A stretch of DNA of 64,000 nt from a virus. Its lineage: Duplodnaviria; Heunggongvirae; Uroviricota; Caudoviricetes. The DNA lies in IMG/VR virus record IMGVR_UViG_3300023174_000136, positions 1 through 64,000 of that record. One strand, written 5' to 3'. The notes under the pieces were generated by a model, which saw only the letters and a list, made by a program, of their open reading frames with translations, was not told the origin of the DNA and did no database searches. Shown piece by piece: positions 1,679 through 63,685 of the stretch (position 1 is the first letter of the stretch; every line of letters starts with the position of its first letter). Position numbers and translations under genes: made by a program.

Positions 1679-2488
1679 ATGATTATGACCGATAATACGG
1701 AAGTTAGGCCAACTTGTCAGGAACCTGGCTGTGATCGACCTTGTCATTTAAATAGTACTCATAAGAAGACAGGAAGAAAAATTTGGCGAAAGTTATGTGG
1801 CAAATGTCATGGTGATAAAATTGCTGCTAAACATGGACTAAAGAACTTATCTCAGGTAATTGCCAAGAAAGCTGGATTTGATAGTCCTCGTGCGCTTCAA
1901 CTTCATCGCATCAAAGAGCAAGGCTTTGAAAGTGAACGAGACTATCTAGACTACAAGGCAAGAGAGCAAGGATTTGAAAATCATCGCGCGCTTGAACTAC
2001 ATCGCATCAAGGAACGAGGTTTTAGTAGTGAGCGTGAATATCTAGACCACAGGGCCAGAGAACAAGGATTTGAAAATCTTCGTGCGCTTGAACTACATCG
2101 TCTCAAGGAACGAGGTTTTAGTAGTGAGCGTGAATATCTAGAACATAAGGCCAGAGAGCAAGGCTTTGAAAGTCATTATGCGTTACTAGATCACCGAGCG
2201 GTCCAAAAGGGATTTGCAAATCATATTGAATATACCAACTCCAGGCATCCTTATCTGCGATACCGAAAGAATTATTGCGAAAACCACGATGGATCGAAAT
2301 TAGGATTTCGGTGTACATCGACTATTTTAATCTCGGCACAGTTGGATGTTGATCACATAGACGGCGATCCATCTAATAATGATCCTAGTAATCTACAGAC
2401 CTTGTGCAAGTGTTGCCACACATATAAAACACATGAAAGCAAAGACTGGCGCTCACCAGGTCGAAAATCTCTAGGAATCAAATACTGA
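1679..2488 (+). CDS. HNH endonuclease with an N-terminal Cys/His zinc-finger-like region and internal 32-aa tandem repeats
   Basis: The C-terminal motif DVDHIDGDPSNNDPSNLQTLCKCCH is an HNH signature. Three and a bit copies of the unit RALELHRIKERGFSSEREYLDHRAREQGFENx are visible. Confidence 0.75.
   Translation: MIMTDNTEVRPTCQEPGCDRPCHLNSTHKKTGRKIWRKLCGKCHGDKIAAKHGLKNLSQVIAKKAGFDSPRALQLHRIKEQGFESERDYLDYKAREQGFENHRALELHRIKERGFSSEREYLDHRAREQGFENLRALELHRLKERGFSSEREYLEHKAREQGFESHYALLDHRAVQKGFANHIEYTNSRHPYLRYRKNYCENHDGSKLGFRCTSTILISAQLDVDHIDGDPSNNDPSNLQTLCKCCHTYKTHESKDWRSPGRKSLGIKY
1889..2230 (+). repeat. 96-bp coding tandem repeat (about 3.4 copies) inside the HNH gene
   Basis: Near-identical DNA units, for example ...cttgaactacatcgcatcaaggaacgaggttttagtagtgagcgtgaatatctaga..., are repeated. 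Confidence 0.7.
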
Positions 2489-7125: not shown

Positions 7126-8046
7126 TTATTCATGCTTCTCTAGGCGCCATCCGTATGCGCTTTTTCTTTTACCATGCGCCAACATGCTAAGCATCGATCC
7201 TCCAAGATCATATTTCTTCTTTAATTCATATCTTGTGCAAATTTCCACAACGCCAGAGTCGTGTATAAATTTATATACGGTGTGGTCATAGCTGTGATGT
7301 TTTTTGCCTTTGTTGCCGTATTCATGTGGAGCAGATTCTAATTGGTCCGTGCGTACTAGTCGCCATCCATTTGTGCTATATTGGCGCCCATGGATCAGTC
7401 TGCTCAGAGATACTTGGTCAATATCATAAGTTTCTCTCATCTCATATCTGGTGCATTTCATTATGCCATGTACTGAATGTATGAATGTATATATAGATTG
7501 GTCGCCCATATTTGCTCTATGCGACTCGGATTTCAACTTGCCATTACTGGACTTGCTTATATTGACACGATGAGATTCAGATTTTGGCTTATGCATTTTC
7601 TTCCTAGTTTCGTCAGTCTTGTGTCTGCCTTTGAGAACATGATCAATCCTGTTGGGATTTATACTGCATGTTTTCTCGTGAGTTGAATGATTTCTTTTGT
7701 CTATCATTTTGTCGCAGTGAGTACATTTCTTTCTCGCACAGGGCGCTCCGAAGAATTTGTCGTCACCATTGTGTTTGTTATATGACATGGGATCGCGCTT
7801 GGCGTCTAGTGATCGGAGGAGTTCAGTCTCAAGAAGGCGCATTTCCTGTACATTTCCGATAGCCAAAATCTCTCTGTTCCAGTTATCGGGATTTCCTTCA
7901 ATGAGTGGCTCGACGACATCGGAGGAGCAGATATAGCCATCATCTGGATGACATTTCTTGGCGGTTCGTGATCCGATATACCATTTGCCGGTCGATTTTT
8001 CTGTCCATTTGTATACAAATGGAACATGGGTATTATAAATATTCAT
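7126..8046 (-). CDS. GIY-YIG homing endonuclease with NUMOD3-like motifs and two tandem C-terminal DNA-binding repeats
   Basis: KWYIGSRTAKK...DDGYICSS is the GIY-YIG motif. PKSESHRVNISKS and LKSESHRANMG are NUMOD3-like. Two homologous ~45-aa C-terminal modules follow (IYTFIHSVHGIMKCTRYEMRETYD... and VYKFIHDSGVVEICTRYELKKKYD...). Confidence 0.8.
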   Translation of the reverse strand: MNIYNTHVPFVYKWTEKSTGKWYIGSRTAKKCHPDDGYICSSDVVEPLIEGNPDNWNREILAIGNVQEMRLLETELLRSLDAKRDPMSYNKHNGDDKFFGAPCARKKCTHCDKMIDKRNHSTHEKTCSINPNRIDHVLKGRHKTDETRKKMHKPKSESHRVNISKSSNGKLKSESHRANMGDQSIYTFIHSVHGIMKCTRYEMRETYDIDQVSLSRLIHGRQYSTNGWRLVRTDQLESAPHEYGNKGKKHHSYDHTVYKFIHDSGVVEICTRYELKKKYDLGGSMLSMLAHGKRKSAYGWRLEKHE

Positions 8047-11931: not shown

Positions 11932-12102
11932 GTTAATTTTACCTTCAAGTATATTTACTCATTGAAATTTATGCCTCTTACATATTTGAATACTCAATTC
12001 ATCGTGAATATCACTCATCTCATCGTTAAAAGATGTAAATTTGCACAATATTTGTATATAATAAAATTTCACTGACGCTAACTATTACTTCATAAAGGAA
12101 AA

Positions 12103-12273
12103 ATGATGAATAAACCGAATTCAAGCTTCAAACTCAGTAGCGCTGCTAAACGAATTATTGCAACTGCCGGGAACAATTCTCGTGCAATTGCCAAAATTTG
12201 GATAAATGGCGAGTTTAATGCACACCGTAAACAACCCAGGACTGTAAAGTCTGATCATTCAACTACTGACTGA
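12103..12273 (+). CDS. hypothetical small protein (56 aa)
   Basis: AAAGGAAAAATG RBS. The peptide begins MMNKPNSSFKLSSAAKRIIATAGNNSRAIAKIWINGEF... Confidence 0.3.
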   Translation: MMNKPNSSFKLSSAAKRIIATAGNNSRAIAKIWINGEFNAHRKQPRTVKSDHSTTD

Positions 12274-12329
12274 AGCTATTTTAATAATGCACACACAGAC
12301 ACTAAACCCAAACAAAGGAGGACAGCGAT

Positions 12330-12989
12330 ATGTCTATGATACGCAATTTTGCGCTAATAGTATTATCGGTTATGACATTCCAGAGTGCAAGTCATGCCGA
12401 GACCCCAGCAGGGAAACAAGCGGGTCACATACCAGAATTAGTTTCTAGTTCTGTTGATACTAAAACTACAGCAGTTGTAACAACTGTTGATACTAAAAAA
12501 CCGGAAGTCAAATCACTACTATATCCGGATAATGATACGAGAGCATTGTATTCTACATTGCCTAATAAAAGCATCAAAAAAAAGGTAGATGATACAGAAT
12601 TACAATGTCTGGCAAAAAATATCTACTATGAGTCTGGCAATCAGCCCGAAGAAGGCAAAGTTGCAGTTGGTCTAGTTACTCTTAATCGCAAATCAGATTC
12701 GAGATTCCCCTCGACTGTCTGTGGAGTAGTCAACCAGCGTTCTAAACGTGCAGTATGTCAATTCTCTTGGCGCTGTCAACGTGTTCGAGCCCTTGATAAA
12801 AATGGCGCACAATGGACGGAAAGCCACAGAATTGCAATGGCTCTATTATCAGTACCAGCGATGTATCAAAATTTAAAGAAAAAGTATTTTGATGCTCTGT
12901 ATTTTCACGCAACATATGTACGACCAAGTTGGTCTTATGAAAAGTTTCGTGTAGCTCGTGTAGCCGGTCACATCTTCTATAGAGATTAG
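12330..12989 (+). CDS. secreted SleB-like cell-wall hydrolase
   Basis: AGGAGG RBS and a signal peptide, MSMIRNFALIVLSVMTFQSASHA. The motif LAKNIYYESGNQPEEGKVAVGLVTLNR...CQFSW is typical of the SleB hydrolase domain. Confidence 0.7.
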   Translation: MSMIRNFALIVLSVMTFQSASHAETPAGKQAGHIPELVSSSVDTKTTAVVTTVDTKKPEVKSLLYPDNDTRALYSTLPNKSIKKKVDDTELQCLAKNIYYESGNQPEEGKVAVGLVTLNRKSDSRFPSTVCGVVNQRSKRAVCQFSWRCQRVRALDKNGAQWTESHRIAMALLSVPAMYQNLKKKYFDALYFHATYVRPSWSYEKFRVARVAGHIFYRD

Positions 12990-13006
12990 ATTTGATTGTT
13001 ATGAAA

Positions 13007-13036
13007 GGTCCTGTGTTTTCACAGGGCTTTTCTTTT
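13007..13036 (+). terminator. rho-independent terminator
   Basis: Stem ggtcctgtg / cacagggct with loop tttt, followed by ttttctttt. Confidence 0.5.
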
Positions 13037-13055
13037 AATACTCATAAATAAAAAT

Positions 13056-13325
13056 ATGAGATTTCACGAATTTGTCACCGAAAAAGCATCTGCCAAAACT
13101 TGCCGAAAAGGTAATGAAGGTAAAAAAATTGGTATTAGTGCAAGATCGAGTTGCGTAAGTCAAGGACTTATGCCTCACAAATCAAAACATACCGATGGCA
13201 CTGGTAAACAGGGCAAGGATGGTTCAGGTGTACCACTAAACGGTAAATATGCCAAAGGTGAACAATACGGCGGAAAAGTCAAAGACTACAGCGCAATCAG
13301 CCGCGGACGCGCAAATCGTAAATAA
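13056..13325 (+). CDS. basic Gly/Lys-rich small protein
   Basis: 89-aa ORF with a weak RBS. Confidence 0.4.
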   Translation: MRFHEFVTEKASAKTCRKGNEGKKIGISARSSCVSQGLMPHKSKHTDGTGKQGKDGSGVPLNGKYAKGEQYGGKVKDYSAISRGRANRK

Positions 13326-13341
13326 TTCCCACCTATTGTTA

Positions 13342-13370
13342 TTGACCCTGTTGGTATTTTCTGCTAGAAT
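13342..13370 (+). promoter_or_regulatory. sigma70-like promoter TTGACC-N17-TAGAAT
   Basis: Exact 17-nt spacer. It is upstream of the DNA ligase gene. Confidence 0.5.
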
Positions 13371-13395
13371 ATGTTGTTAGCAGAAAAGGGAAATC

Positions 13396-14703
13396 ATGTT
13401 TAAAATTATCAAAGAACTAGAAGCCGATAATAGCCGTCTTGTTAAGGAAGCTATTTTAAAGCGAGAAGCAGATGCCGGTAACACAACGTTGTTTGATGGC
13501 ATTCGAATAGCGTTAAATCCATTTGTTACTTTTGGCGTTAGAAAAGTTCCTATTCATGGTGGCCCTGATGGACAAGGTCTTCCTATTGATGCATTCAATG
13601 AATTAACTAATCTTCTTTACAATCGTCTATTGACCGGCAACGATGCTCGTGATGCAATTGAATTGACAATGAGCGCCGCAACTCAGGATGAATGGAATTA
13701 CTGGTACCGCAGAATTCTAATTAAGGATCTTAGATGCGGAGTCAGTGAGAAGACCGTGAACAAAGTTCTCAAGGGAACTTCAATTCCTCCTGTTCCTATT
13801 TTCGAATGTGCTCTTGCAAATGACGGTGCCAAGCAGGAAAAGAAAATCAAGGGCGTTAGAATTCTAGAACCCAAGTTAGATGGTGTTCGGTGCTTGACTA
13901 TGGTAGATTATTCGGCAAGAACTGCTATCATGTATTCTCGTAACGGTAAAATTCTAGAAAACTTCCCTCACATCACTGATGGAATCATGAAAAATATTGA
14001 TGACATTGGTCGTAGTTATGTTATAGATGGCGAAGTGGTCAGCGATAGTTTTCAGGCCTTGATGAAGCAAGTTCATCGAAAGGATGATGTACAGGCAACT
14101 GATGCTCGTCTAATGGCGTTTGATATTATTCCCTTGTCAGAATTTCAACAAGGAAAGAGTGTCATGACACAGAAGAATCGCAGCGCACTTCTGAAAACTA
14201 TGAAGCCTGTGTTTGACAAGTGTGGTGGAATTGATGTAATCGAACAGAAGTTGGTAGATTTGGACTCTCTAGTAGGCAGTATTGAATTTAATGACTTTAA
14301 TAAATTTGCAATTGAGCAAGGATTTGAAGGTATCATGGTTAAAGATCCAGGTGCTATATATGAATGTAAGCGAACTGACTCCTGGTTGAAAATTAAACCA
14401 GTGATTACTGTGGATTTGACCATTGTTGCAGTAGAGGAAGGCACAGGAAAGAATTTAGGTAAATTAGGCGCACTTGTCTGCGAAGGTACCGACCAAGGAA
14501 AATTTATTAAAGTTAATGTAGGATCTGGATTAACAGATGATCAACGAGATGAGATTTGGACAAATCAATCATCGATTCTTGGTCAGGTAGTGGAAATTAA
14601 AGCGGACTGTATCACTCAGAATCAAGATGCAGAAAATACTTATAGTCTAAGATTTCCAAGATTCGAAAGATTCAGAGGCTTCATTGCAGGTGACAAAATA
14701 TAA
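13396..14703 (+). CDS. ATP-dependent DNA ligase
   Basis: EPKLDGVRCL is adenylation motif I (KxDGxR). The 435-aa size fits phage ATP ligases. Confidence 0.85.
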   Translation: MFKIIKELEADNSRLVKEAILKREADAGNTTLFDGIRIALNPFVTFGVRKVPIHGGPDGQGLPIDAFNELTNLLYNRLLTGNDARDAIELTMSAATQDEWNYWYRRILIKDLRCGVSEKTVNKVLKGTSIPPVPIFECALANDGAKQEKKIKGVRILEPKLDGVRCLTMVDYSARTAIMYSRNGKILENFPHITDGIMKNIDDIGRSYVIDGEVVSDSFQALMKQVHRKDDVQATDARLMAFDIIPLSEFQQGKSVMTQKNRSALLKTMKPVFDKCGGIDVIEQKLVDLDSLVGSIEFNDFNKFAIEQGFEGIMVKDPGAIYECKRTDSWLKIKPVITVDLTIVAVEEGTGKNLGKLGALVCEGTDQGKFIKVNVGSGLTDDQRDEIWTNQSSILGQVVEIKADCITQNQDAENTYSLRFPRFERFRGFIAGDKI

Positions 14704-14918
14704 TGACCATAATTAAATGGCTAGGAACGATTCTTATCATCCTGGCCACAATATTTCGTGCAATTGATATGCACGTAGCAGATATGGCTTGTACATTAAT
14801 TGGTTCAAGTGCATGGGCTTATGCAGCATGGCGAACAAACGATAAAGCGTTGTTGACCATAAACTTATTTTCCGTATTGATAATGATAGCGGGAATATAC
14901 CACTCAAGAGGAGATTAA
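14703..14918 (+). CDS. small membrane protein (two transmembrane helices)
   Basis: TAATG overlap. The peptide is hydrophobic, LGTILIILATIF... and LFSVLIMIAGIY. Confidence 0.45.
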   Translation: MTIIKWLGTILIILATIFRAIDMHVADMACTLIGSSAWAYAAWRTNDKALLTINLFSVLIMIAGIYHSRGD

Positions 14919-14925
14919 AAACTAA

Positions 14926-15144
14926 GTGGCAAAGGAAGAATTAATAGAAGTGGAAGGCGTTGTAGAAGATGTTCTTCCAAATGCAATGTTTAAAGTTCGT
15001 GTCAACGAACATCATCTTATTACCGCGGTAATCAGCGGAAAAATGCGTCAACATAAGATCAGAATATTAACTGGTGATCATGTCAAAGTAGAATTGAGCG
15101 CATATGATTTAACGCGCGGAAGAGTCACTTACCGAAGTAAGTGA
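14926..15144 (+). CDS. infA: translation initiation factor IF-1 homolog (S1-like OB fold)
   Basis: GTG start after an [82 protein letters not shown] aligns closely over its whole length with bacterial IF-1. Confidence 0.85.
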
Positions 15145-15151
15145 CCCTCAT

Positions 15152-15664
15152 TTATGACAAGAATATTTCCCAACTTGGGTGACGATAATCAAATTTCATT
15201 TTCTTGCGCTTTTCAACCAGTTCCCAGTAACTAGGCTTGTGTGGAGCTTTTGAAGGCTTGATCTTTGCATCATTGCCTTTAGCTCCATTACATGGACCAC
15301 ATGCGGTTGTGGAATTTTCCCAACTTGTTTTGCCGCCCTTACTGATAGGCAGAACGTGATCTAGTGTCGCGGTCTTTCCAGTAACAGGCGTGAAGCAATA
15401 CTGGCAAGTGTACTCATCTCTTAAAAAGAGATTTGCTTTACTAAAGCGAACATGTGCCTTTTTCTTGGAATATTCCTTGAGCATGATAACTGATGGAACC
15501 TTAGTACTCCAATTGGCAGAATGAACTTCCCAATCGTCGTGCCATACAAGCACACTAACTTTATCAAGCACGAGGTATTCAATGGCCTTGCGCCATGTAA
15601 TCACGCTCAATGGTAACATAGATGACGGTGATCCGTCAGTGTTGAGTAATAAAGTGTCGGCCAT
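15152..15664 (-). CDS. HNH endonuclease
   Basis: YCFTPVTGKTATLDHVLPISKGGKTSWENSTTACGPCNGAKGN is an HNH motif with Cys pairs. Confidence 0.8.
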   Translation of the reverse strand: MADTLLLNTDGSPSSMLPLSVITWRKAIEYLVLDKVSVLVWHDDWEVHSANWSTKVPSVIMLKEYSKKKAHVRFSKANLFLRDEYTCQYCFTPVTGKTATLDHVLPISKGGKTSWENSTTACGPCNGAKGNDAKIKPSKAPHKPSYWELVEKRKKMKFDYRHPSWEIFLS

Positions 15665-15815
15665 AATTTCTTCTCTCAGCTATTTATAGTTTGCATGTCT
15701 CTTATTATACATGATCGGTGATCTTTAATCAATGACTAGATAGCATAAATATTTACATGGATCAAAATCGCATAGCAAGCTATTTTCATAAATACCAGTA
15801 ACTTCGGAGATTTTT

Positions 15816-16322
15816 ATGAGCATTATACCGCTACCAATTAAAATTTTAGTCAGTGTTTTTATAATTTTAGGTGCATTTGCATTTGGATATATGAAGGGAT
15901 CTGCTTATGCAGAAGCAGAACTACAAAGATTTTCTGCCGAATCATCAAAGAAATACGCAGAACTGGAAAAGAAAAATAGTGAAATCAAAGAAAAAGTCGT
16001 AACTCAATATATTGATAGAGTTAATACAATAAAGGAAAAACAGTATGTCTATCTCGACAATGTTAAAAACAACGTTCCTGCTCAGCACGACATGTCTAAC
16101 GGTTTCGTGTACACACACGACATTAGTGCCACAAATGGTGATGCCGACACCGCCAGAAGTTCTGATGCGAGCCCCTCAGGAATTAAGGACAATCAGGTCC
16201 TCCTCACCGTCGTCTCTAACTACTCCAGATGCCTCCAAAACAACCAGCAATTAATTGCTTTACAAGAGTGGATTACAAAAAATAAGCAAGCAGTTGAATT
16301 AGAAAGTTCTCGCAAGAAATAA
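15816..16322 (+). CDS. i-spanin (Rz-like): N-terminal transmembrane helix plus coiled-coil
   Basis: The N-terminal helix is ILVSVFIILGAFAFGY, followed by a charged coiled-coil. The gene is immediately upstream of the endolysin and contains an embedded +1-frame lipoprotein ORF. Confidence 0.55.
   Translation: MSIIPLPIKILVSVFIILGAFAFGYMKGSAYAEAELQRFSAESSKKYAELEKKNSEIKEKVVTQYIDRVNTIKEKQYVYLDNVKNNVPAQHDMSNGFVYTHDISATNGDADTARSSDASPSGIKDNQVLLTVVSNYSRCLQNNQQLIALQEWITKNKQAVELESSRKK
16045..16254 (+). CDS. o-spanin (Rz1-like) embedded in the i-spanin gene: lipoprotein with a Pro-rich tail
   Basis: +1-frame ORF with lipobox LTVSC (MLKTTFLLSTTCLTVSC), followed by the Pro-rich PQMVMPTPPEVLMRAPQ...SSPSSLTTP. 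Confidence 0.5.
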   Translation: MSISTMLKTTFLLSTTCLTVSCTHTTLVPQMVMPTPPEVLMRAPQELRTIRSSSPSSLTTPDASKTTSN

Positions 16323-16333
16323 GGAATTAATAA

Positions 16334-16966
16334 ATGACTGATTTATCTAAATTATCACCAATTGAAGCATTACAAACAAAATGTGGAATAACAGTTGATG
16401 GCCAGTGGGGACGCAATACATTTGAGGCAGCAGCTGCCCACTTTAAGTTGTCGGGTGCTCGTGCTGCTCACTTCTTTGGACAGTGCAATCACGAAACAGG
16501 AAACTTCAAGGCATTCTCCGAGAACCTTAACTATTCAGATAAGGGATTGAATGGAATCTTTAAGAAGTATTTTCCTACGATAGCTTCTACTGCTGGCTAC
16601 GCGCGTAAGCCAGAGAAGATTGCTAACAAAGTTTATGCAAATAGAATGGGTAATGGCAACGAAGCATCAGGCGATGGCTATAAGTATCGCGGACGCGGAG
16701 CAATCCAATTAACTGGTAAGGCAAACTATCAAGCATTTGCAACGCATATCGGTCGTCCAGATGTAATGACCAACCCAGATATTGTATCAACTGAGTTAGC
16801 ATTTGAATCAGCATTGTTCTTCTTTGAAAAGAATAACCTATGGGCAATTTGTGACAAAGGATTGAACAATGATGTAATCACCTCTGTTACCAAAAAGGTC
16901 AACGGAGGAACAAACGGTCTTGATGATCGAATTGCAAAGACACAGACCTTTGCAGCCTGGATCTAA
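16334..16966 (+). CDS. endolysin, GH19 (class I chitinase-like) lysozyme
   Basis: YANRMGNGNEASGDGYKYRGRGAIQLTGKANYQAF is the GH19 catalytic signature. Confidence 0.8.
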   Translation: MTDLSKLSPIEALQTKCGITVDGQWGRNTFEAAAAHFKLSGARAAHFFGQCNHETGNFKAFSENLNYSDKGLNGIFKKYFPTIASTAGYARKPEKIANKVYANRMGNGNEASGDGYKYRGRGAIQLTGKANYQAFATHIGRPDVMTNPDIVSTELAFESALFFFEKNNLWAICDKGLNNDVITSVTKKVNGGTNGLDDRIAKTQTFAAWI

Positions 16967-16977
16967 GGAGAATAACA

Positions 16978-17226
16978 ATGAAACATATTTTGAACTATAT
17001 GCATAGAATTTTGGCTGATCCAAATGGAAATCCCTCATCAAAACGTTTAGTCACACTTGTTTGTACTATGCTAATGACCATTGGATTTATTGCAAATCTA
17101 TTCTGGGAATTTAAAATTGATGAATTCATTTTTAACTCAGTGATGTACATTATAATTGGTGGTATGGGAATTACTGGCGTTGAGAAATTTGCACCAAAAT
17201 CACCAACTGATAACATTGCTGAATAA
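16978..17226 (+). CDS. holin-like small membrane protein (two transmembrane helices)
   Basis: AAGGAG RBS. It lies directly after the endolysin and has hydrophobic helices LVTLVCTMLMTIGFIANLFW and VMYIIIGGMGITGV. Confidence 0.4.
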   Translation: MKHILNYMHRILADPNGNPSSKRLVTLVCTMLMTIGFIANLFWEFKIDEFIFNSVMYIIIGGMGITGVEKFAPKSPTDNIAE

Positions 17227-17242
17227 TTCGTAGGGGAATATC

Positions 17243-17866
17243 ATGACCATTTATTACATCAACACCGGTACTAGTCCAAATAAAGGTGATGGTGATCCCC
17301 TACGCACGGCATTCAATAAAATTAATCAAAACTTCACATATTTGTCTACTGCTAGTTTCAGTGGTGGCACTGCTGGCGGAAAATATGCTATAGACGGTGG
17401 CAATGCAGCATCCGATGTTACCGGAGAAGTACTAGTTGATGTCTCGACTGTTTTAGTTAATATACTTGGCAGTGTATCAACAATCAATGGCCAGTTAATA
17501 ATAAACGGAGTTACTGGTAAAATTGAATTGTCTGCATTGCCTAATTCATTACCGGCAGTTTTTAATCTCACTGCAAATTTTAACTCTACAGGTAATTTAA
17601 GTAATTTGACCAATCTTCCAACTGGATGGAGTTATTCTCAGGCGGGAAATATAGTTACTATAAATCATAATATTGGAAGACAACCCTTTCAAATTTCATA
17701 TTGGGGTTATTCAGTTACAGAAGGTCAACGATTAAGATTCCCTACAGCGGGGTATCAAGTTAGTAGAACAACCACTTCACCATATTCATTTACTATGAAT
17801 TTAAACTCTGCGGTCACTGGTGCAGATAATAATCAATATGCAGTAGTTGGAATAATGTTTGTATGA
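17243..17866 (+). CDS. tail-fibre/virion structural protein
   Basis: N-terminal motif GDGDPLRTAFNKINQNF, followed by a Thr/Ser/Asn/Gly-rich beta-rich sequence. Confidence 0.5.
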   Translation: MTIYYINTGTSPNKGDGDPLRTAFNKINQNFTYLSTASFSGGTAGGKYAIDGGNAASDVTGEVLVDVSTVLVNILGSVSTINGQLIINGVTGKIELSALPNSLPAVFNLTANFNSTGNLSNLTNLPTGWSYSQAGNIVTINHNIGRQPFQISYWGYSVTEGQRLRFPTAGYQVSRTTTSPYSFTMNLNSAVTGADNNQYAVVGIMFV

Positions 17867-18660
17867 CACAGTTAGCTCCATCAAAGGTTCTTAAAATAAA
17901 CATTTTGAATCTAACTCCGGTTGAGCAATATGGACAAGAACCTAATCCAAATCAACCTTGGAGATTTTCTGCCAATTTAACAATTGTGCCTCAACTACAT
18001 AGTGACCCAAGAACACCTCGTCCTGGAGTATATAACGGATACGATGTTGTTGTAGGTGATTACATTCTTTCACGAACATCTAGAGTTTTAAGAATTATTC
18101 AAATCAATTACCAAGATGATGACCAAGTAACATGTGTGCTAGAAGATCATAAACGATTAAACAGTAGTGTTGATGTGACTCAATCCGGTGAAAGTTCAAT
18201 TGATACAGGCCAGGGATTACTTTTTACATTGGCTTCTGGATTGCCTGTACTGTTTCCACTGCCAGGTGATTTGGGAAATCTTAGTTTTGAAAGTTTAGTT
18301 GAGGTGTTAGGAAGATTCGTTTATTCCGAGGGATTTGCCTTGATTAATATGAATGATCTTGACATTACGAATCTACAACAAGGATCAATTTTAACTTATT
18401 CTACATCAACTGAGACTTGGAATGCAACCTCTTTAAACAGTACAACATTTTCAATATCCAGTGGAACTATTTCTCTTAAAACAATAGGAACTTCTCTAGG
18501 CGGAACAGGTATTACTTCTTATACTACTGGTGATATTCTATACGCATTATCATCATCGACTCTGGTGACTTTGTCCAAACCTTCTACTTTTTCTTTTCTT
18601 ACAATGGATAATAATGGAACACCTAGTTGGGCCAATACAGTTGACGGCGGAACTTACTAA
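17863..18660 (+). CDS. virion structural / fibre-associated protein
   Basis: ATGA overlap. 265 aa, rich in Ser, Thr, Asn and Leu. Confidence 0.45.
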   Translation: MTQLAPSKVLKINILNLTPVEQYGQEPNPNQPWRFSANLTIVPQLHSDPRTPRPGVYNGYDVVVGDYILSRTSRVLRIIQINYQDDDQVTCVLEDHKRLNSSVDVTQSGESSIDTGQGLLFTLASGLPVLFPLPGDLGNLSFESLVEVLGRFVYSEGFALINMNDLDITNLQQGSILTYSTSTETWNATSLNSTTFSISSGTISLKTIGTSLGGTGITSYTTGDILYALSSSTLVTLSKPSTFSFLTMDNNGTPSWANTVDGGTY

Positions 18661-22592: not shown

Positions 22593-25500
22593 ATGCCATT
22601 CTTATTAGAAAAATGGTTATTGACAATTGCACAACAACAAACTTCAGTAACTCCAGTAACTTCTGGATATCTTTATCAAGGTGGTATTAATGCTAATCTT
22701 ACTCAAATTGGAGTAAGTTCCTGGTCTCAGGTTTCATCAGGTTATGCAGACGATAATACCTATGTTCTTCAAGATTCCACGGCTAAAATTACAGTCTTTT
22801 CTACTAGTAATTCTTGGGGACAACTGGGATCAGGAGTCACTGGATCTAGTGGAGGAACTAGTTATCAGCATTCTGGGTCTTGGAAAACTGTTAGCACGGA
22901 TGGAAATTCTGTTATAGGTATAAAAACAGATGGTACATTGTGGGTCTGGGGAAAAAATGACATAGGTCAATTGGGCCTTGTTAATGTAGTTACACTTTCT
23001 AAAGTATCTCCTAGTGGCGATCATACTCTTGGAATTGATCCATTAGGAAAATTATATGCATGGGGAAGAAATCATGTAGGTCAATTAGGTGTTAATAACA
23101 CTACACTACAACCAAATATTCCTACATTAATAGATTCAGGATCTTGGATTCAAGTATCAGCTAGTCTCGGTAATTTTAGTAGTGCAGCAATTCGCGGTGA
23201 TAATACTCTTTGGACATGGGGCGGTAATTCCAGTGCTCAATTAGGACATGGAGATACTGAATCTAAAAGTTCCCCTACGCAAATAGCAGGATCTTGGGCG
23301 CAGGTTTCCATGGGAACAAGTCACACACTGATGCTGAAAACAGATGGCACTGTTTGGGGGACAGGTGTTAATAATAAGGGACAACTAGGAACTTTATCAC
23401 AATCTTGGACTCAAGTTGCAATTGGAGCAAGCCACTCTCTTGCAATTAGCTCTAATGGAACACTCTGGGGATGGGGTTCTAATGGTTATTTACAAATTGG
23501 ATATAGTGTTGGTGGATTTTATAGAAGTCAGCCAGGTTTAGTAACATCAGGATCTTGGAAATCAGTTAGTGCTGGTGTTAGCTATAGTTTGGCGATTGAT
23601 AGCAATGGACTTCTTTATGCCTGGGGCGATAATTTATGGGGACAATTAGGTACAGGAACAAGTGATGATCAGTATTCCACTCCTCAGTTAGTGTCTGGAG
23701 GCGGATCGTGGAAGATAGTATCTGCTACTGAAAGAGGCACGATAGCAATAAAAACAGATGGTACTCTTTGGGCCTGGGGGTATAATCAGCTGTTTAATCA
23801 ACTTGGTCTGAGTTTTACAGATAATTATTATTTAGTTCCTGCCAGACCTTCAAATTCCGCTGGAAGCTGGAATACAGTATCAGCTGGTTCTTCTCACACC
23901 TTGGCAATAAAATCAGATGGTACACTTTATGCCTGGGGTGATAATACTTATGGTCAATTAGGTAATCAACCTTCAGCAGCACTATCATGGTCGCAAATAG
24001 TTTTAGGTAATGCTCACACAGTTGCACTTAGGTCCGATGGAGCATTGTTTACTTGGGGCGCAAATACATACGGGCAGTTAGGTAATAGTAGCTCAACTGC
24101 GGCACAGTCGCCATTCAAAGTAGGATCAAGTTCTTGGGCATTTGTTTCCGCTGGAGCATCACACTCTGCTGCCATTGACATTAATGGATCTCTTTACTTA
24201 TGGGGTCTTAATACTGGTGGCAGACTTGGCGACGGTACAGTAGTATCAAGATCGTCGCCGGTTCAAGTATCGGGTGGTGGAGTTTGGACTCGCGTGGCAT
24301 GTGGACTAACCCATACAACTGCAATAAAATCTGGCGGACTATTATTTTCGTGGGGCGCAAATACTAGTGGTGTTTTAGGACTAGGTACATCAACTGCGGC
24401 TGCTTCAAGTCGTTCGACTCCTCAACAAATTGGTGCCAGTACTTGGTCATTTGTTTCATCTATAAATCTTCATGTTGCAGCTATAACTACTACTGGATTA
24501 CTATTTGCATGGGGCGACGGTGCCGATAGTAAAATTGGAGACGGATTTGCAGTGAACCGTTCATCTCCGGTTCAAGTAGGAACTGGATTTTCTTGGAAAA
24601 CAGCAAGTGCTGGAATAAACCACACGTCCGCAATAAGAACGGATGACACTTTATGGCTGTGGGGACTAGGAACCACTGGACAACTTGGTGATAATACAAG
24701 AGTTACAAAAGCTAGTCCTGTACAGGTTGCAGGCACAGGAACATGGGCCGCAACTGCATCAGGTAATAGTTATACAGTAGCAATCAAAACAGACGGATCA
24801 CTGTTTTCTTGGGGAGCTACGAGTCATATTTTAGGTGATGGCACTACTGTGAGTAGAAGCAGCCCAGTGCAGATTGCTTCATTCGCAGGAACATGGACGT
24901 CGGTTTCTGCAAACTTAAGCACTGCGGTTCTGGTAAACAACAATCGAAGTATTTGGGGATGGGGTGCAAACGCCTCGGGGCAGTTAGGTATTGGAGATAT
25001 TACTACCAGAAGTTCTCCGGTACAAATTGGTGCATCGTTTGCTACAGCAGGAGTTTCTCTAATTTCTTCTGCAACTAATTGGACCGCAGTCTCTGCCGGT
25101 CAATATCATTCTTTGGCCTTAAAATCAGATGGTACACTATGGGCTTGGGGGTCAGGAGTATATGGTCAGTTAGGTCAAGGTAATATTACTTCTTATGCCA
25201 GTCCCGTACAAGTTGTTGGTACATGGACAGCAATAGCAGTGGGAGTGAATCATTCATTGGCAATTAAAAATGATCTTAAAGTTTATGGATGGGGCAGAGG
25301 TGACCTTTATGCTCTTGGAGGCAGTTCTAACATATATACTCCTACTATACTCTACAATTCAACTAATTCAAATTCAATTGCAGCCGGAGGCAACAATTCT
25401 GCGTACTTGATTCCAGGAAATGATAACCTATATACCACGGGATTGAATACTCAAGGACAAAATGGATGGTTCAATACATTTGCTCCTTCTGGTACCGGAT

Positions 25501-28037
25501 TTTCACCGGTTACAAACATAACTGCATTTTCACTTAGTCCTAAACAAATATTGCCAACACAAAGTGGATTTTGGTCGAGTACAACTGCAACTGATATTTC
25601 TGCAGGTGGTTTACATAGTCTTGCCGTCATTTATAACACAAATCCGGATTCAGTTTATGCAATAGCATGGGGTGATAACACTTATGGGCAGTTAGGAAGA
25701 GGAAGTGTAGGATCGCTCGGCTTTGGTCAGGAGGCTACTCCGAGTGTTATGCTAACTCCCGCTGTTGTAGCACTGTCTTATGTAGTGGCAGTTTCTGCTG
25801 GCGGACAACACTCGTTGGTTTTGGATAGATCTGGCAATCTGTCCTCAACGGGAAATAATAATTTTGGTCAATTGGGTACAACATTGTATTTTACAGCAAC
25901 TGGATATTGTAGACCAATGCTTTCGCCTGTAGTAGCGTGTAGTGCTGGATTTTATCACTCATTAGCAATAACATCTAATAGAACTGTATGGGCATGGGGC
26001 GAAAATAGTTATCGTCAAGTTGATAACACAGGAATCTCTCGTAGTTCTCCAGTTCAAGTTTCGGCCACATTATCTGCTAATTTTATTGCTGCTGGTAGCA
26101 TATCAACATTTATAATTCAAACTGCAACTAACACTTTGTTTGTAGCAGGTTATAATCTTTATGGACAATTAGGAATTGGTACAAATAACACCTTTTCTGC
26201 ACTTGTAAGTTCAAGACAAACAACCTTCACAAGCCCATTACAGCTTGGAACCGATATGTGGTCTGCTGTTTCATCAGGTTATTTGTATAATACCGCAATA
26301 AGATCAGATGGGTCGTTGTGGGCATGGGGTACTAATAGCACAGGACAACTTGGAGATATCACAACAGTCACACGCTCTAGTCCTGTTCAAATTGGCACAG
26401 GTGTTTCATGGAAAGCAGTTAGTGCAGGTTATGATCATACATTGGCAATCACTAGCCAAGGAACATTGTACACATGGGGTGATAATTCTAGTGGAAAATT
26501 AGGAACAGTGGACTTGGTAACTCGTTCATCACCTGTTGCTATTGGTGCAGGAACTTGGAATTCAGTAAGTGCTGGTAGAAGTCATAGTTTAGCCATAAAC
26601 AGTCAACGGCAGATGTTTGGGTGGGGATCATATGCTGGTGGAACATTAACGCAAAATTATTCATGGACACAGTCAGCCTCTGGATTATCTCATGCTGCTG
26701 CAATTAAAGCAGATAACACATTATGGCTATGGGGGAAAAATACTTACGGACAGCTTGGAGATTTAACAACAAACTCACGATCTAGTCCTGTTCAAGTTTC
26801 CGGCGGAGGTTTGTGGCAACAGGTTGCCACCGGCGCTTATAGTACTTTTGGCATTAAAACAGATGGAACTCTTTGGGCATGGGGCAGAAATACTCAGGGA
26901 GAACTAGGTACAAATAGCACTGTTAGTGCATCTAGTCCTGTTCAAGTTGCAGGCGGAGGATCTTGGAAAACTGTTGCCGGTAGCAGCAACAGTATTAGTT
27001 TTTTTACATATGGTATTAAAACAGATGGAACTCTTTGGGCATGGGGAGACAACAGTTATGGACAGCTTGGTAAAGGTGATACGATTGCTAGATCAAGTCC
27101 TGTACAAGTTGGCACTGCAACATCATGGTCAAAATTACAAGTAGGATCTTTTGGTCCCTGTGTTATTGACACTGCAGGAAGATTGTGGGTATGTGGATAT
27201 AATAATGACGGAGCGTTAGCACAAAATGATATAGCTGGTCGATCAACACTAGTGCAAGTTACCAGTGGCGCGGTGTCATGGACAACAGTTTCAGCTTCTT
27301 TTGGCGTTTTAGCAATTGATGTTGCTGGTAACTTGTGGGGATGGGGATATAATATATATGGTTCATTGGGAATAGGCGACCAGACGCGCAGAAGCACTCC
27401 TGTACAAGTTACCGCAGTTGCATCTACATGGACCGACGTTGCTTTTATAGGCCATCCTTCTAAGGGTAATAGACAGAGTGCAATAGGAATTGCAGGCAAT
27501 CAAATGTATGGCTGGGGATTTTCAGTCCTTGCTAATACATTAAATATTAACCTTACTCCTGTTACAAATGGATTAAGTGGATTATCATGGAAACCATTGC
27601 CATCTATGAATAGTGTAGCAACATTAATCACACAACGAGGACAACTATGGACATGGGGCTACAATGGACAGGGAAATTTAGGAATAGGAACAACAGATTT
27701 TTATAGTAGCTATTATGGTTATTATGAAATACAACGCGCTTCTTTGCCAATGGACGCAGTATCAGCATATTCTCTAGTCGCAAGATCTAGTCCTGTGCAA
27801 GTCGGTTCGAGTAATCAATGGCAGTCAGCATTTGCCGGAAACAATTTTAATTTAGCAATTAATAATAATGCACTCTATGGGTGGGGATTAAATAACACTA
27901 ATGCAAGCATATCTGGTAGCTTGAGTAATCCTGCTTTCCTTGGTCTACCAGATACATATATTGCTGATCCACAGTTACTTGCAACAACAGCAACATCGGC
28001 ATCGGCAAAGAATCTAACATACATATTAAAGAATTGA
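22593..28037 (+). CDS. giant RCC1-repeat (beta-propeller) protein, 1814 aa
   Basis: About 30 repeats of the RCC1-like signature ...G.LW.WG.N.YGQLG.G....SSPVQV... run throughout. RBS ACGGAG. Confidence 0.75.
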   Translation: MPFLLEKWLLTIAQQQTSVTPVTSGYLYQGGINANLTQIGVSSWSQVSSGYADDNTYVLQDSTAKITVFSTSNSWGQLGSGVTGSSGGTSYQHSGSWKTVSTDGNSVIGIKTDGTLWVWGKNDIGQLGLVNVVTLSKVSPSGDHTLGIDPLGKLYAWGRNHVGQLGVNNTTLQPNIPTLIDSGSWIQVSASLGNFSSAAIRGDNTLWTWGGNSSAQLGHGDTESKSSPTQIAGSWAQVSMGTSHTLMLKTDGTVWGTGVNNKGQLGTLSQSWTQVAIGASHSLAISSNGTLWGWGSNGYLQIGYSVGGFYRSQPGLVTSGSWKSVSAGVSYSLAIDSNGLLYAWGDNLWGQLGTGTSDDQYSTPQLVSGGGSWKIVSATERGTIAIKTDGTLWAWGYNQLFNQLGLSFTDNYYLVPARPSNSAGSWNTVSAGSSHTLAIKSDGTLYAWGDNTYGQLGNQPSAALSWSQIVLGNAHTVALRSDGALFTWGANTYGQLGNSSSTAAQSPFKVGSSSWAFVSAGASHSAAIDINGSLYLWGLNTGGRLGDGTVVSRSSPVQVSGGGVWTRVACGLTHTTAIKSGGLLFSWGANTSGVLGLGTSTAAASSRSTPQQIGASTWSFVSSINLHVAAITTTGLLFAWGDGADSKIGDGFAVNRSSPVQVGTGFSWKTASAGINHTSAIRTDDTLWLWGLGTTGQLGDNTRVTKASPVQVAGTGTWAATASGNSYTVAIKTDGSLFSWGATSHILGDGTTVSRSSPVQIASFAGTWTSVSANLSTAVLVNNNRSIWGWGANASGQLGIGDITTRSSPVQIGASFATAGVSLISSATNWTAVSAGQYHSLALKSDGTLWAWGSGVYGQLGQGNITSYASPVQVVGTWTAIAVGVNHSLAIKNDLKVYGWGRGDLYALGGSSNIYTPTILYNSTNSNSIAAGGNNSAYLIPGNDNLYTTGLNTQGQNGWFNTFAPSGTGFSPVTNITAFSLSPKQILPTQSGFWSSTTATDISAGGLHSLAVIYNTNPDSVYAIAWGDNTYGQLGRGSVGSLGFGQEATPSVMLTPAVVALSYVVAVSAGGQHSLVLDRSGNLSSTGNNNFGQLGTTLYFTATGYCRPMLSPVVACSAGFYHSLAITSNRTVWAWGENSYRQVDNTGISRSSPVQVSATLSANFIAAGSISTFIIQTATNTLFVAGYNLYGQLGIGTNNTFSALVSSRQTTFTSPLQLGTDMWSAVSSGYLYNTAIRSDGSLWAWGTNSTGQLGDITTVTRSSPVQIGTGVSWKAVSAGYDHTLAITSQGTLYTWGDNSSGKLGTVDLVTRSSPVAIGAGTWNSVSAGRSHSLAINSQRQMFGWGSYAGGTLTQNYSWTQSASGLSHAAAIKADNTLWLWGKNTYGQLGDLTTNSRSSPVQVSGGGLWQQVATGAYSTFGIKTDGTLWAWGRNTQGELGTNSTVSASSPVQVAGGGSWKTVAGSSNSISFFTYGIKTDGTLWAWGDNSYGQLGKGDTIARSSPVQVGTATSWSKLQVGSFGPCVIDTAGRLWVCGYNNDGALAQNDIAGRSTLVQVTSGAVSWTTVSASFGVLAIDVAGNLWGWGYNIYGSLGIGDQTRRSTPVQVTAVASTWTDVAFIGHPSKGNRQSAIGIAGNQMYGWGFSVLANTLNINLTPVTNGLSGLSWKPLPSMNSVATLITQRGQLWTWGYNGQGNLGIGTTDFYSSYYGYYEIQRASLPMDAVSAYSLVARSSPVQVGSSNQWQSAFAGNNFNLAINNNALYGWGLNNTNASISGSLSNPAFLGLPDTYIADPQLLATTATSASAKNLTYILKN

Positions 28038-28045
28038 AGGTAAAA

Positions 28046-63269: not shown

Positions 63270-63294
63270 CACTGCGTTAAAATTAGTGTTAAAT
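63266..63294 (+). promoter_or_regulatory. sigma70-like promoter TTGACA-N17-TTAAAT directly upstream of the tRNA-like element
   Basis: TTGACA at 63266-63271 and TTAAAT at 63289-63294. Confidence 0.45.
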
Positions 63295-63303
63295 AACGTT
63301 ATC

Positions 63304-63365
63304 AGTTGCTCGAAAGCTAACTGAAAGATGTAAAGACGGCGGTTCGACTCCGCCCATCTCCACCA
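63304..63365 (+). ncRNA. tRNA-like 3' fragment (hairpin, T-arm, acceptor 3' strand, ACCA). It is a putative small RNA or attP-type tRNA 3' end, not a complete tRNA
   Basis: GGCGG-TTCGACT-CCGCC is a canonical T-arm with a TTCGA loop. It is followed by CATCTCC, A and CCA. No matching 5' acceptor strand (GGAGATG) or D/anticodon arm is present upstream. A 7-bp hairpin lies at 63304-63322. Confidence 0.35.
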
Positions 63366-63679: not shown

Positions 63680-63685
63680 CTAATC

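What the first reader, a model, noticed from the sequence alone, without database searches (positions are those of the whole stretch)
14926..15144. Phage-encoded translation initiation factor IF-1 (infA) homolog
The 72-aa product aligns closely over its whole length with bacterial IF-1 ([12 protein letters not shown]...[51 protein letters not shown]). It has a GTG start and a good RBS, and sits between DNA ligase and an HNH endonuclease. Core translation-initiation factors are rare in phages. It may bias initiation toward phage messages or compensate for host shutoff.
Basis: partly seen in the sequence, partly recalled or inferred. Interest (0 to 1): 0.55.

Follow-up and report, generated by a model that had tools for sequence, protein, structure and literature searches.

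The report
Jumbo-phage copy of initiation factor IF-1
This is a genuine, strongly conserved copy of the bacterial translation initiation factor IF-1 carried by an uncultured jumbo phage; such genes are already reported in huge phages, and here one is fixed in a whole phage lineage, probably to keep host ribosomes initiating during infection.

Summary
The 72-aa GTG-start ORF at 14926-15144 is real and is a bona fide bacterial-type IF-1. It scores 106 bits on the TIGR00008 equivalog (cutoff 61). It aligns end to end with solved IF-1s. Its AlphaFold model (pLDDT 92.7) superposes on ribosome-bound IF1.

The window is phage, and an identical neighbouring protein lies on a 334-kb contig, so this is a jumbo phage. 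The gene is neither contamination nor a recent pick-up. Its composition matches the phage's, dN/dS is 0.06-0.17, and it is the best-conserved gene in its neighbourhood. It sits in a conserved ligase-(small ORF)-infA-HNH(reverse) module. Starting from the ligase, 16 of 16 closest relatives carry infA there, and most more distant relatives do not.

The lineage's IF-1 keeps the main 30S-contact residues. It differs at a few interface positions (Q42; V35 and A59 in this subgroup) and keeps a GTG start.

IF1 in huge phages is already published, with no functional test found. This is a new member of a known kind. The most likely role is topping up or replacing host IF1 on the 30S A site. Biased initiation remains possible. 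Donor and host are unresolved.

The parts
14926..15144 (+). infA: 72-aa bacterial-type translation initiation factor IF-1, GTG start, TGA stop
   Evidence: ORF. TIGR00008 106 bits against cutoff 61.15. PF01176 80 bits. PDB IF-1s at E about 1e-24. AF2 pLDDT 92.7. Foldseek top 14 hits are all IF-1.
14907..14914 (+). Shine-Dalgarno AGAGGAGA for infA, inside the 3' end of the upstream ORF. The same AAGGAG-type SD plus GTG start recurs in nearly all syntenic lineages.
   Evidence: Sequence. Conservation of SD and GTG start.
15124..15145 (+). 9-bp hairpin GTCACTTAC-CGAA-GTAAGTGAC overlapping the last infA codons and the stop. Probable 3' stem-loop or weak terminator shared with the convergent HNH gene.
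   Evidence: Terminator-like scan. RNAfold -12.9 kcal/mol. Conserved and extended in the L005 and L009 lineages, with a compensatory C:G to T:A change coupling Val GTC>GTT with stop TGA>TAA.
14703..14918 (+). 71-aa DUF6552 small hydrophobic ORF. Its ATG overlaps the ligase stop (ATGA) and it is translationally linked to infA. It is a variable element of the module: absent or replaced in other lineages.
   Evidence: PF20189 30 bits. Present in the window, L005 and L009 groups. Ligase-to-infA spacing varies from +21 to +901 nt elsewhere.
13396..14703 (+). ATP-dependent DNA ligase, first gene of the putative ligase-DUF6552-infA operon and the conserved upstream anchor of the module
   Evidence: PF01068 and PF14743. 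Synteny.
13342..13370 (+). sigma70-like promoter candidate TTGACC-17-TAGAAT with extended-10 TG, upstream of the ligase. Consensus match only.
   Evidence: 10 of 12 matches. It follows a strong terminator-like hairpin at 13003-13032.
15152..15664 (-). 170-aa HNH endonuclease, convergent with infA. The conserved downstream anchor of the module.
   Evidence: PF14279 and PF01844. On the reverse strand just after infA in all syntenic loci at 55-79% identity. Homologues also occur in sister phages lacking infA.

Best explanation
The ORF encodes a functional bacterial-type IF-1 made by a jumbo phage during infection. It most likely binds the A site of the host 30S subunit as host IF1 does, contacting helix 44, the 530 loop and protein S12, and works with host IF2 and IF3. 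Its main effect is probably quantitative. It would keep the IF1-to-ribosome ratio high when host infA expression falls, for example after host shutoff or mRNA decay, or under ppGpp, which blocks translation of host infA mRNA. That would maintain a pool of free, initiation-competent 30S subunits for phage mRNAs. Shown: identity, fold, retention of contact residues, purifying selection, and fixation in a phage lineage. Inferred: 30S binding, timing of expression, and the dosage mechanism.
For: Identity: TIGR00008 equivalog 106 bits against cutoff 61, with full-length alignments to solved IF-1s. Fold: AF2 pLDDT 92.7 with the beta-barrel plus short helix at residues 38-42. TM 0.90-0.92 and rmsd 1.1-1.6 A to 30S-bound IF1 chains 9fco_I, 9h9h_X and 1hr0_W. 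Contact residues: K39, R41, R46, Y60, R64, R66, R70 and the LPNAMF beta1-beta2 loop are retained. Their roles are described in PMC10913371 and PMC4611024. Selection: dN 0.15-0.25 with saturated dS, giving dN/dS 0.06-0.17, and IF-1 is 75-81% identical between sublineages whose flanking genes are 43-79% identical. Long residence: GC and GC3 equal the phage mean. Fixation: the same ligase-infA-HNH module occurs in 7 of 7 sampled protein subgroups and in 16 of 16 ligase-seeded closest relatives. Expression signals: a conserved SD and start codon. Dosage logic: raising IF1/70S and IF3/70S ratios maintains free 30S subunits and shifts translational bias, and host infA mRNA translation is ppGpp-sensitive (PMC7873864). 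The same window also carries a rimK-like bS6-modifying enzyme and a tmRNA, so the phage invests in the ribosome.
Against: There is no experimental or expression data for this or any phage IF-1; none was found in seven literature searches. The host is unknown, so compatibility with host 30S, IF2 and IF3 cannot be assessed. The lineage carries substitutions at ribosome-facing positions: 42 (K/M to Q, a 530-loop contact) and 35 (H/Y to V, the S12 side). Most sister lineages also have R46 to Q (an A1492/A1493 contact). A pure 'extra copy of host IF1' model does not predict these changes. A conserved, less efficient GTG start is odd for a gene whose role would be simply to raise dosage.
Confidence: 0.6

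Rival explanations
1. Re-tuned initiation factor. The phage IF-1 binds the 30S A site, but its lineage-specific interface changes alter the 30S conformation or the cooperation with IF3 and IF2. Initiation would then be biased toward phage mRNAs (particular start codons or translation initiation regions) or away from host mRNAs, possibly together with the phage rimK-like bS6 modifier.
For: Q42 occurs in 19 of 20 IF-1s in the ligase-seeded sample and in none of 80 sampled bacterial IF-1s. V35, I36, E14 and E28 are derived and conserved in the window's subgroup. Positions 35, 42 and 46 are ribosome-contact positions (PMC10913371). IF1 strengthens IF3-dependent mRNA selection (PMC7873864). The GTG start is kept in about 14 of 16 syntenic lineages despite saturated synonymous change. 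rimK-like and tmRNA genes lie in the same window.
Against: The changes are few and mostly conservative in size. All strongly basic contacts are kept in the window protein, including R46. Position 35 is not invariant in bacteria: it is T in S. pneumoniae IF1. The bacterial comparison set was pattern-selected and so is biased. There is no evidence that phage mRNAs in this window use unusual starts: about 37 of 45 SD-supported starts are ATG.
Confidence: 0.22
2. Off-ribosome RNA chaperone. The protein acts mainly as a small OB-fold RNA-binding protein, like a cold-shock protein, melting structures in phage transcripts in cold aquatic hosts rather than acting as an initiation factor.
For: IF1 shares the OB fold with CspA and S1 domains (established knowledge). 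IF1 is itself cold-induced in E. coli (PMC7873864). RNA-chaperone activity of IF1 is recalled from my own knowledge and was not verified in the library.
Against: No hit to cold-shock or S1 domain families at E<=0.01, and the sub-threshold RsgA_N hit is only 22 bits. All top structural matches are IF-1, then a/eIF1A. The residues under strongest conservation are the ribosome-contact ones. A chaperone role would not require equivalog-level conservation of the whole IF-1 surface.
Confidence: 0.08
3. Passenger or artefact. The gene is host DNA in a chimeric contig, a recent non-functional capture, or cargo hitch-hiking with the adjacent HNH homing endonuclease.
For: An HNH endonuclease is always adjacent. 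Some 'phage' database records with IF-1 look like host contamination: short unannotated contigs with bacterial-type IF-1. IMG/VR copies occur at contig ends with a betaproteobacterial-type sequence.
Against: Identical synteny recurs in dozens of independent assemblies from different samples. Phage genes lie on both sides for tens of kb. Composition is ameliorated. Purifying selection is strong. No cellular genome among the GTDB hits carries this sequence type. HNH homologues persist in sister phages without infA, so infA is not simply HNH cargo.
Confidence: 0.02

Closest known systems
Bacterial translation initiation factor IF-1 (InfA; TIGR00008 / Pfam PF01176; e.g. E. coli 1AH9, T. thermophilus 1HR0, C. 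difficile 6C00)
   Same: Same length (72 aa) with no indels. 56-62% identity in the structural alignments to solved IF-1s and 67-74% identity to the closest cellular-type sequences. Same OB barrel with a short helix. Basic 30S-contact residues K39, R41, R46, R64, R66, R70, plus Y60 and the beta1-beta2 loop, are retained.
   Different: It is encoded by a phage, in a ligase-infA-HNH module never seen in the 80 bacterial loci. It has a GTG start. It carries derived residues at positions that are near-invariant in the sampled bacteria: V26 for L, E28 for N, H29 for G, V35 for H/Y, Q42 for K/M, K44 for an aromatic or R, and A59 for P.
IF1 genes of huge phages (Al-Shayeb et al. 2020, PMC7162821; Lak megaphages; Jug gut jumbo phages, PMC12880540; Sinorhizobium phage Phosso)
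   Same: A jumbo-size phage genome (contig of 334 kb) carrying IF-1 alongside other translation genes such as a tmRNA, exactly the pattern described for huge phages. IF-1 is a conserved core-like gene within the lineage, as reported for Jug phages.
   Different: A different lineage and an independent acquisition: only 47-50% identity to the Lak, Phosso and LR756511 copies. Those sit in other contexts, and most lack the signature. Phosso has a TTG start, K42 and N46. Lak-B1 has M42 and K46. LR756511 shares Q42 and R46 but has an ATG start. No deposited phage shares DNA similarity with this region.
Phage-encoded ribosomal protein bS21 (PMC9723584) and other phage ribosomal or initiation proteins
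   Same: A small host-derived component of the 30S initiation machinery, fixed in clades of large aquatic phages and proposed to redirect or sustain initiation.
   Different: A different protein and binding site: bS21 sits at the platform and anti-SD region, IF-1 at the A site. IF-1 is a transient factor, not a ribosomal subunit component.
Cold-shock proteins and S1-domain OB-fold proteins
   Same: The general five-stranded OB fold for RNA binding.
   Different: No family-level sequence match. Structural neighbours are IF-1, then aIF1A/eIF1A and RsgA N-domains, not Csp or S1.

Membership tests
Bacterial IF-1 (InfA, TIGR00008 equivalog / PF01176) | Sequence scores above the curated family cutoffs over the full model | tested here: met
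   TIGR00008 106 bits against 61.15, model positions 1-69 of 69. PF01176 80.3 bits against 30.2, model positions 1-64 of 64.
Bacterial IF-1 (InfA, TIGR00008 equivalog / PF01176) | Single-domain protein of about 71-72 aa that is collinear with known IF-1s | tested here: met
   72 aa, with gapless alignment of residues 1-72 to solved IF-1s from seven or more species.
Bacterial IF-1 (InfA, TIGR00008 equivalog / PF01176) | [quoted passage not shown] | tested here: met
   AF2 pLDDT 92.7, strands at 7-17, 21-25, 31-36, 52-57 and 64-71, helix at 38-42. Foldseek TM 0.77-0.92 to all solved IF-1s.
Bacterial IF-1 (InfA, TIGR00008 equivalog / PF01176) | Conserved 30S-contact residues: K39 and M/K42 (530 loop), R41 and R46 (A1492/A1493), the beta1-beta2 loop (h44), H35, Y60, R64 and R66 (S12 side), and R70 | tested here: met
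   K39, R41, R46, Y60, R64, R66, R70 and LPNAMF are present. Two positions differ: 42 is Q and 35 is V. Residue roles are taken from PMC10913371 and PMC4611024.
Bacterial IF-1 (InfA, TIGR00008 equivalog / PF01176) | Binds the 30S A site and stimulates IF2/IF3-dependent initiation; essential function | not testable with these tools
   This needs 30S binding assays, toeprinting or complementation of an infA depletion strain.
Archaeal/eukaryotic aIF1A/eIF1A | Scores above the family cutoff, with N- and C-terminal extensions | tested here: not met
   TIGR00523 22 bits against cutoff 102.9, and other aIF1A models 16-20 bits against 91-202. No extensions are present.
Cold-shock domain / S1 domain proteins | Match to the CSD or S1 family models | tested here: not met
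   No such Pfam family at E<=0.01. None appear among the top structural neighbours.
Huge/jumbo phage translation-gene repertoire (Al-Shayeb et al. 2020) | Phage genome above 200 kb carrying host-like translation genes (IFs, tmRNA, ribosomal proteins) | tested here: met
   An identical rimK-like protein with the same gene order lies on a 334,494-bp contig. The window holds infA, a permuted tmRNA and a rimK-like gene. The description of the class comes from PMC7162821.
Free-standing homing-endonuclease cassette (infA as cargo of HNH) | Sporadic presence or absence among close relatives, with cargo not under independent selection | tested here: not met
   infA plus HNH is present in 16 of 16 closest ligase-seeded relatives. 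dN/dS is 0.06-0.17. HNH homologues occur without infA in sister phages.

The most novel reading that the evidence does not exclude
This lineage's IF-1 may not be a spare part but a re-tuned factor. Its changes at 530-loop- and S12-facing positions are Q42 throughout the lineage, V35 in this subgroup, and Q46 in most sister lineages. These could alter A-site and helix-44 conformation or IF3 cooperation. Together with the phage's rimK-like bS6 glutamyl-ligase and its own permuted tmRNA, it would then form a ribosome-reprogramming kit that biases initiation toward phage messages. The conserved GTG start could be part of an autoregulatory loop.
Probability: 0.15. Interest if true: 0.7.

Novelty: new member of a known kind. 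Interest (0 to 1): 0.4.

Why it matters
Phage-encoded initiation factors have been catalogued in huge phages, but I found no report of one being tested functionally. This lineage is an unusually clean natural experiment:

- It shows a single ancient gain and then fixation in a defined, abundant clade.
- Purifying selection is strong.
- A short list of derived substitutions falls on known ribosome-contact positions. It includes natural R46 and Q46 variants within the same clade.

The protein is only 72 aa and collinear with E. coli IF1. The dosage and re-tuning hypotheses can therefore be separated by simple complementation, toeprinting and back-mutation experiments, without culturing the phage. 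If the factor only supplements host IF1, that supports the view that jumbo phages buffer themselves against host translational decline. If it alters selectivity, it would be the first viral initiation factor shown to reprogram bacterial start-site choice.

Tried and rejected
- **Megablast to deposited phages.** A search of 12000-18500 against 50,697 records found nothing.
- **Placing the phage with other genes.** The ligase's best hits were SPO1-like Bacillus phages at about 35%. A 590-aa conserved protein hit only Salicola phage SCTP-2 at 25%. NrdA hit Xanthomonas, Ralstonia and Stenotrophomonas phages at 55-60%. None of these is diagnostic of lineage or host.
- **Donor search.** The GTDB scan gave at most 68% identity, spread over Omnitrophota, Planctomycetota, Proteobacteria and Bacillota. 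The 5.8-billion-protein search gave cellular-type sequences at no more than 74%. I conclude that 72 residues cannot resolve the donor.
- **Tree building.** A neighbour-joining tree of 232 IF-1s was poorly resolved and split known syntenic members. An earlier Biopython attempt timed out. I relied on synteny and signature residues instead.
- **Single-protein IMG/VR scan.** This was biased by its own peptide patterns, including GKMRQHKI and the ATG-containing MAKEELIE. I therefore re-sampled from the ligase.
- **P59A as a clade marker.** Rejected. It marks only the window's subgroup.
- **Q42 as a general feature of all phage IF-1s.** Rejected. Lak, Phosso and DAC phages lack it.
- **The 2025 'moraphage' aquatic jumbo lineage as the identity of this phage.** That paper mentions no initiation factor or tmRNA and predicts Bacteroidota hosts.
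- **More translation genes in the window.** Scanning 20 further ORFs found none.

Full report
**1. The observation**

The window contains, at 14926-15144 on the + strand, a 219-nt ORF with a GTG start and a TGA stop. An AGAGGAGA Shine-Dalgarno sequence (14907-14914) lies inside the last codons of the upstream ORF. No ORF of 40 aa or more overlaps infA on the opposite strand.

One detail needs correcting. A 71-aa DUF6552 ORF (14703-14918) separates the ATP-dependent DNA ligase (13396-14703) from infA. The HNH endonuclease gene (15152-15664) is convergent on the minus strand, and its stop is 7 nt from the infA stop.

**2. Identity**

The protein scores 106 bits on NCBIfam TIGR00008 (infA, equivalog; cutoff 61.15) over the full model. 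Archaeal and eukaryotic IF1A models score only 16-22 bits against cutoffs of 91-202. Pfam PF01176 gives 80 bits. The only other hit is a sub-threshold RsgA N-domain, and no cold-shock or S1 family appears.

The protein aligns without gaps, residues 1-72, to solved IF-1s from P. aeruginosa, S. pneumoniae, S. aureus, C. difficile, E. coli, M. tuberculosis and T. thermophilus, at E=1e-24 to 1e-19.

An AlphaFold2 model built on 39 homologues has mean pLDDT 92.7. It shows the expected five strands plus a short helix at residues 38-42. Foldseek against the PDB returns bacterial IF-1 for the top 14 hits, including 30S-bound copies (9fco_I, 9h9h_X, 1hr0_W; TM 0.90-0.92, rmsd 1.1-1.6 A). These are followed by aIF1A/eIF1A and RsgA N-domains.

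**3. The window is a jumbo phage**

- Large ORFs match phage tail-fibre and tail proteins, giant RCC1-repeat proteins and NrdA.
- Other genes include NrdB, ThyX, GIY-YIG and HNH homing-type endonucleases, a GH19 lysin, a SleB-like hydrolase, an SPFH protein, a tail assembly chaperone and sugar-modifying enzymes.
- Forty of 45 SD-supported genes are on one strand.
- There is no nucleotide-level match to any of 50,697 deposited phage genomes, and marker proteins have only distant cultured relatives.
- The window's rimK-like protein occurs identically, with the same surrounding gene order, on a 334,494-bp metagenomic contig. The genome is therefore of jumbo size.

**4. The gene is an old, fixed, selected part of a phage lineage**

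*Protein search.* In a search of 5.8 billion proteins, about 105 of the best 120 hits (65-99% identity) share a distinctive sequence type. Canonical bacterial-type sequences appear only near the bottom of the list, at 67-74% identity.

*Genomic context.* I looked up seven subgroups of that type, at 99, 81, 76, 75, 72, 71 and 69% identity. Every one shows the same module: ligase, an optional small ORF, infA, and a reverse-strand HNH. The contigs reach 333 kb.

*Control for ascertainment bias.* To avoid the bias of starting from infA, I built a ligase alignment and fetched 80 ligase-seeded IMG/VR loci. At least 577 exist. Of the 70 with at least 1.5 kb downstream:

| Ligase identity to the window | Loci | With infA |
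|---|---|---|
| 61% or more | 15 | 15, all downstream and followed by reverse-strand HNH |
| 59% | 3 | 1, in the same arrangement |
| 58% or less | 52 | 4, all with ATG starts and none followed by the reverse-strand HNH (three have infA 2.5-4.2 kb upstream of the ligase) |

This pattern indicates one gain at the base of a defined sublineage, followed by vertical inheritance.

*Selection and composition.* Between sublineages, dN is 0.15-0.25 while dS is saturated (above 1.4 or incalculable), so dN/dS is about 0.06-0.17. IF-1 (75-81% identity) is better conserved than the adjacent ligase (67-73%), HNH (69-79%), DUF6552 (59-62%), SPFH protein (69%) and SleB-like hydrolase (43-47%). infA GC and GC3 (0.393 and 0.301) equal the phage gene means (0.396 and 0.319).

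Contamination, recent capture and hitch-hiking with the HNH gene are thus effectively excluded.

**5. What is conserved and what is different**

Residue roles come from the C. difficile IF1 study modelled on the T. thermophilus 30S-IF1 crystal structure, which uses the same numbering, and from a review:

| Residues | Contact or role |
|---|---|
| K39, M42 | 530 loop |
| R41, R46 | flipped-out A1492/A1493 |
| beta1-beta2 loop | enters the helix 44 minor groove |
| H35, Y60, R64, R66 | S12 side |
| C-terminal Arg (R70 here) | critical in E. coli |

Sources are PMC10913371 and PMC4611024.

The window protein keeps K39, R41, R46, Y60, R64, R66, R70 and the LPNAMF loop. Against a sample of 80 bacterial IF-1s, it differs at V26 (bacteria L), E28 (N), H29 (G), V35 (H/Y), Q42 (K/M), K44 (aromatic or R), A59 (P) and V67 (I). 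That sample is pattern-selected and so imperfect.

In the ligase-seeded sample, which was not selected on infA:

- Q42 is present in 19 of 20 IF-1s and is the lineage's hallmark.
- Basal lineages keep the bacterial H35, so V35 and A59 are derived in the window's subgroup.
- Position 46 is Q in 14 of 20 and R only in the subgroup resembling the window.

Other phage IF-1s lack the full signature and the synteny (Lak-B1, Phosso and DAC16 also lack Q42; LR756511 has it) and are only 41-50% identical. They are independent acquisitions.

**6. Gene-expression anatomy**

A strong terminator-like hairpin (13003-13032) precedes a promoter-like site, TTGACC-17-TAGAAT with an upstream TG (13342-13370). 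Then come the ligase, DUF6552 (its ATG overlaps the ligase stop) and infA. These are consensus matches only.

A 9-bp hairpin (15124-15145) overlaps the infA stop. It is conserved and longer in the two nearest sublineages. It shows a compensatory pair: the Val codon changes GTC to GTT together with the stop changing TGA to TAA.

The GTG start behind an AAGGAG-type SD is conserved in 11 of 12 infA-seeded syntenic lineages and about 14 of 16 ligase-seeded ones, although synonymous sites are saturated. Non-ATG starts are a minority in this window. This suggests selection on the start codon itself. I cannot say why; autoregulation is speculation.

**7. Mechanism**

*Best explanation (confidence about 0.6).* This is a working IF-1 that occupies the host 30S A site and keeps the IF1-to-ribosome ratio high during infection. 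The logic rests on published E. coli physiology. Raising the IF1/70S and IF3/70S ratios counteracts subunit association and maintains initiation-competent 30S subunits. IF1 strengthens IF3-dependent mRNA selection. Translation of host infA mRNA is itself inhibited by ppGpp (PMC7873864).

*Main rival (about 0.22).* The interface substitutions re-tune the factor to bias initiation.

*Off-ribosome RNA-chaperone role (about 0.08).* This is not excluded, but it is disfavoured by the equivalog-level conservation of ribosome-contact residues and the absence of Csp or S1 similarity.

*Passenger or artefact (about 0.02).* Effectively refuted, as described in section 4.

**8. Comparison with what is known, and novelty**

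IF1 and IF3 genes, and tmRNAs, were reported across huge phages in 2020 as likely tools for intercepting host translation (PMC7162821). An IF-1A-annotated gene is a core gene of Jug gut jumbo phages (PMC12880540). Among deposited phage records, 36 of 50,697 contain an IF-1-like ORF. The credible ones are Lak megaphages, huge-phage MAGs, Sinorhizobium phage Phosso and Bacteroides DAC phages. Comparative reviews of jumbo phages that I checked mention IF3 but not IF1, and a marine jumbo-phage survey mentions neither. I found no functional study of any phage IF-1.

The finding is therefore a new member of a known kind. It is a separate, uncultured, apparently abundant lineage with its own IF-1 subfamily and a fixed gene module.

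**9. Limits**

- Host and donor are unresolved. The permuted tmRNA's second-best Rfam family is the betaproteobacterial two-piece tmRNA, below threshold, which is only a hint.
- The bacterial comparison set and the first IMG/VR set were selected by peptide patterns. The key conclusions rest on the ligase-seeded sample and the large protein search.
- All functional statements beyond identity, fold, conservation and synteny are inference.

Noticed in passing
window 63301-63589 (+) (ARAGORN 63273-63680): A phage-encoded permuted (two-piece) tmRNA: Rfam RF04321 at 87.5 bits against GA 47, with tag peptide AKTVNVNFVAHNDNDLSVMEIAA. The second-best family is beta_tmRNA (52 bits, below GA 84), a weak hint of a betaproteobacterial host. 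It is conserved next to rimK-NUDIX in closely related contigs L218-L220. No SmpB was seen in the window.
   Followed up: partly
window 61544-62425 (+): A RimK-family ATP-grasp enzyme (PF08443 174 bits plus Rimk_N), the family of the ribosomal protein bS6 glutamyl-ligase. It is 47-49% identical to genes annotated 'ribosomal protein S6 glutaminyl transferase' in cyanophages S-RIM12 and S-RIM8, and homologues also occur in Methylophilales and Pelagibacter phages. It is a second ribosome-directed gene in the same phage.
   Followed up: partly
window 14926-14928 and related loci L001-L023, L035-L037, L120-L125, L138-L158: The GTG start codon of phage infA, behind an AAGGAG-type SD, is conserved in nearly all lineages with the ligase-infA-HNH module despite saturated synonymous divergence. 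Non-syntenic viral IF-1 copies use ATG. The reason is unknown.
   Followed up: partly
related loci, e.g. L120-L125, L013-L023, L138-L150 (IF-1 position 46): Most lineages of this phage IF-1 family have Gln, and some Lys, in place of the near-universal Arg46 that contacts the flipped-out A1492/A1493. The window's subgroup has Arg (AGA codon). This natural R/Q polymorphism at a decoding-centre contact is unexplained (residue role from PMC10913371).
   Followed up: partly
window 15124-15145 (+); L005 and L009 equivalents: A hairpin overlapping the infA stop codon. It shows a compensatory change that couples a synonymous Val codon change with a TGA-to-TAA stop change. It sits between convergent genes only 7 nt apart.
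   Followed up: partly
window 22593-28037 (+): An 1,814-aa protein made of many RCC1/WD40-like repeats (PHROG 'regulator of chromosome condensation' families, E about 1e-150). It is embedded among tail-fibre genes and conserved in relatives (1,775 aa in L001).
   Followed up: no
window 28034-31863 (+): A run of modifying enzymes sits between the RCC1-repeat giant and a 1,627-aa tail-fibre protein: a methyltransferase-domain protein, a family-25 glycosyltransferase, Methyltransf_24 and a sulfotransferase. This could indicate virion or receptor glycan modification.
   Followed up: no
window 1679-2488 (+), 7126-8046 (-), 15152-15664 (-), 58893-59474 (-): Several homing-endonuclease-type genes (two HNH, a GIY-YIG plus NUMOD3, and a weak SegE-like hit), mostly on the minority strand. 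The GIY-YIG gene next to thyX is present in the window and L218 but absent from L219, L220 and L222, which is typical mobile behaviour.
   Followed up: no
window 40336-40929 (-): A weak QueC-like / PP-loop ATPase match (25.6 bits, partial). It might point to 7-deazaguanine base modification, but it is not confirmed.
   Followed up: no
phage collection hits H1-H7: Several deposited 'phage' records with bacterial-type IF-1 at 62-66% identity look like host-derived sequence rather than phage genes. They include short unannotated Listeria contigs, Enterococcus and Staphylococcus records, and Acinetobacter phage MD-2021a. The true count of phage IF-1s in that database is therefore below 36.
   Followed up: no
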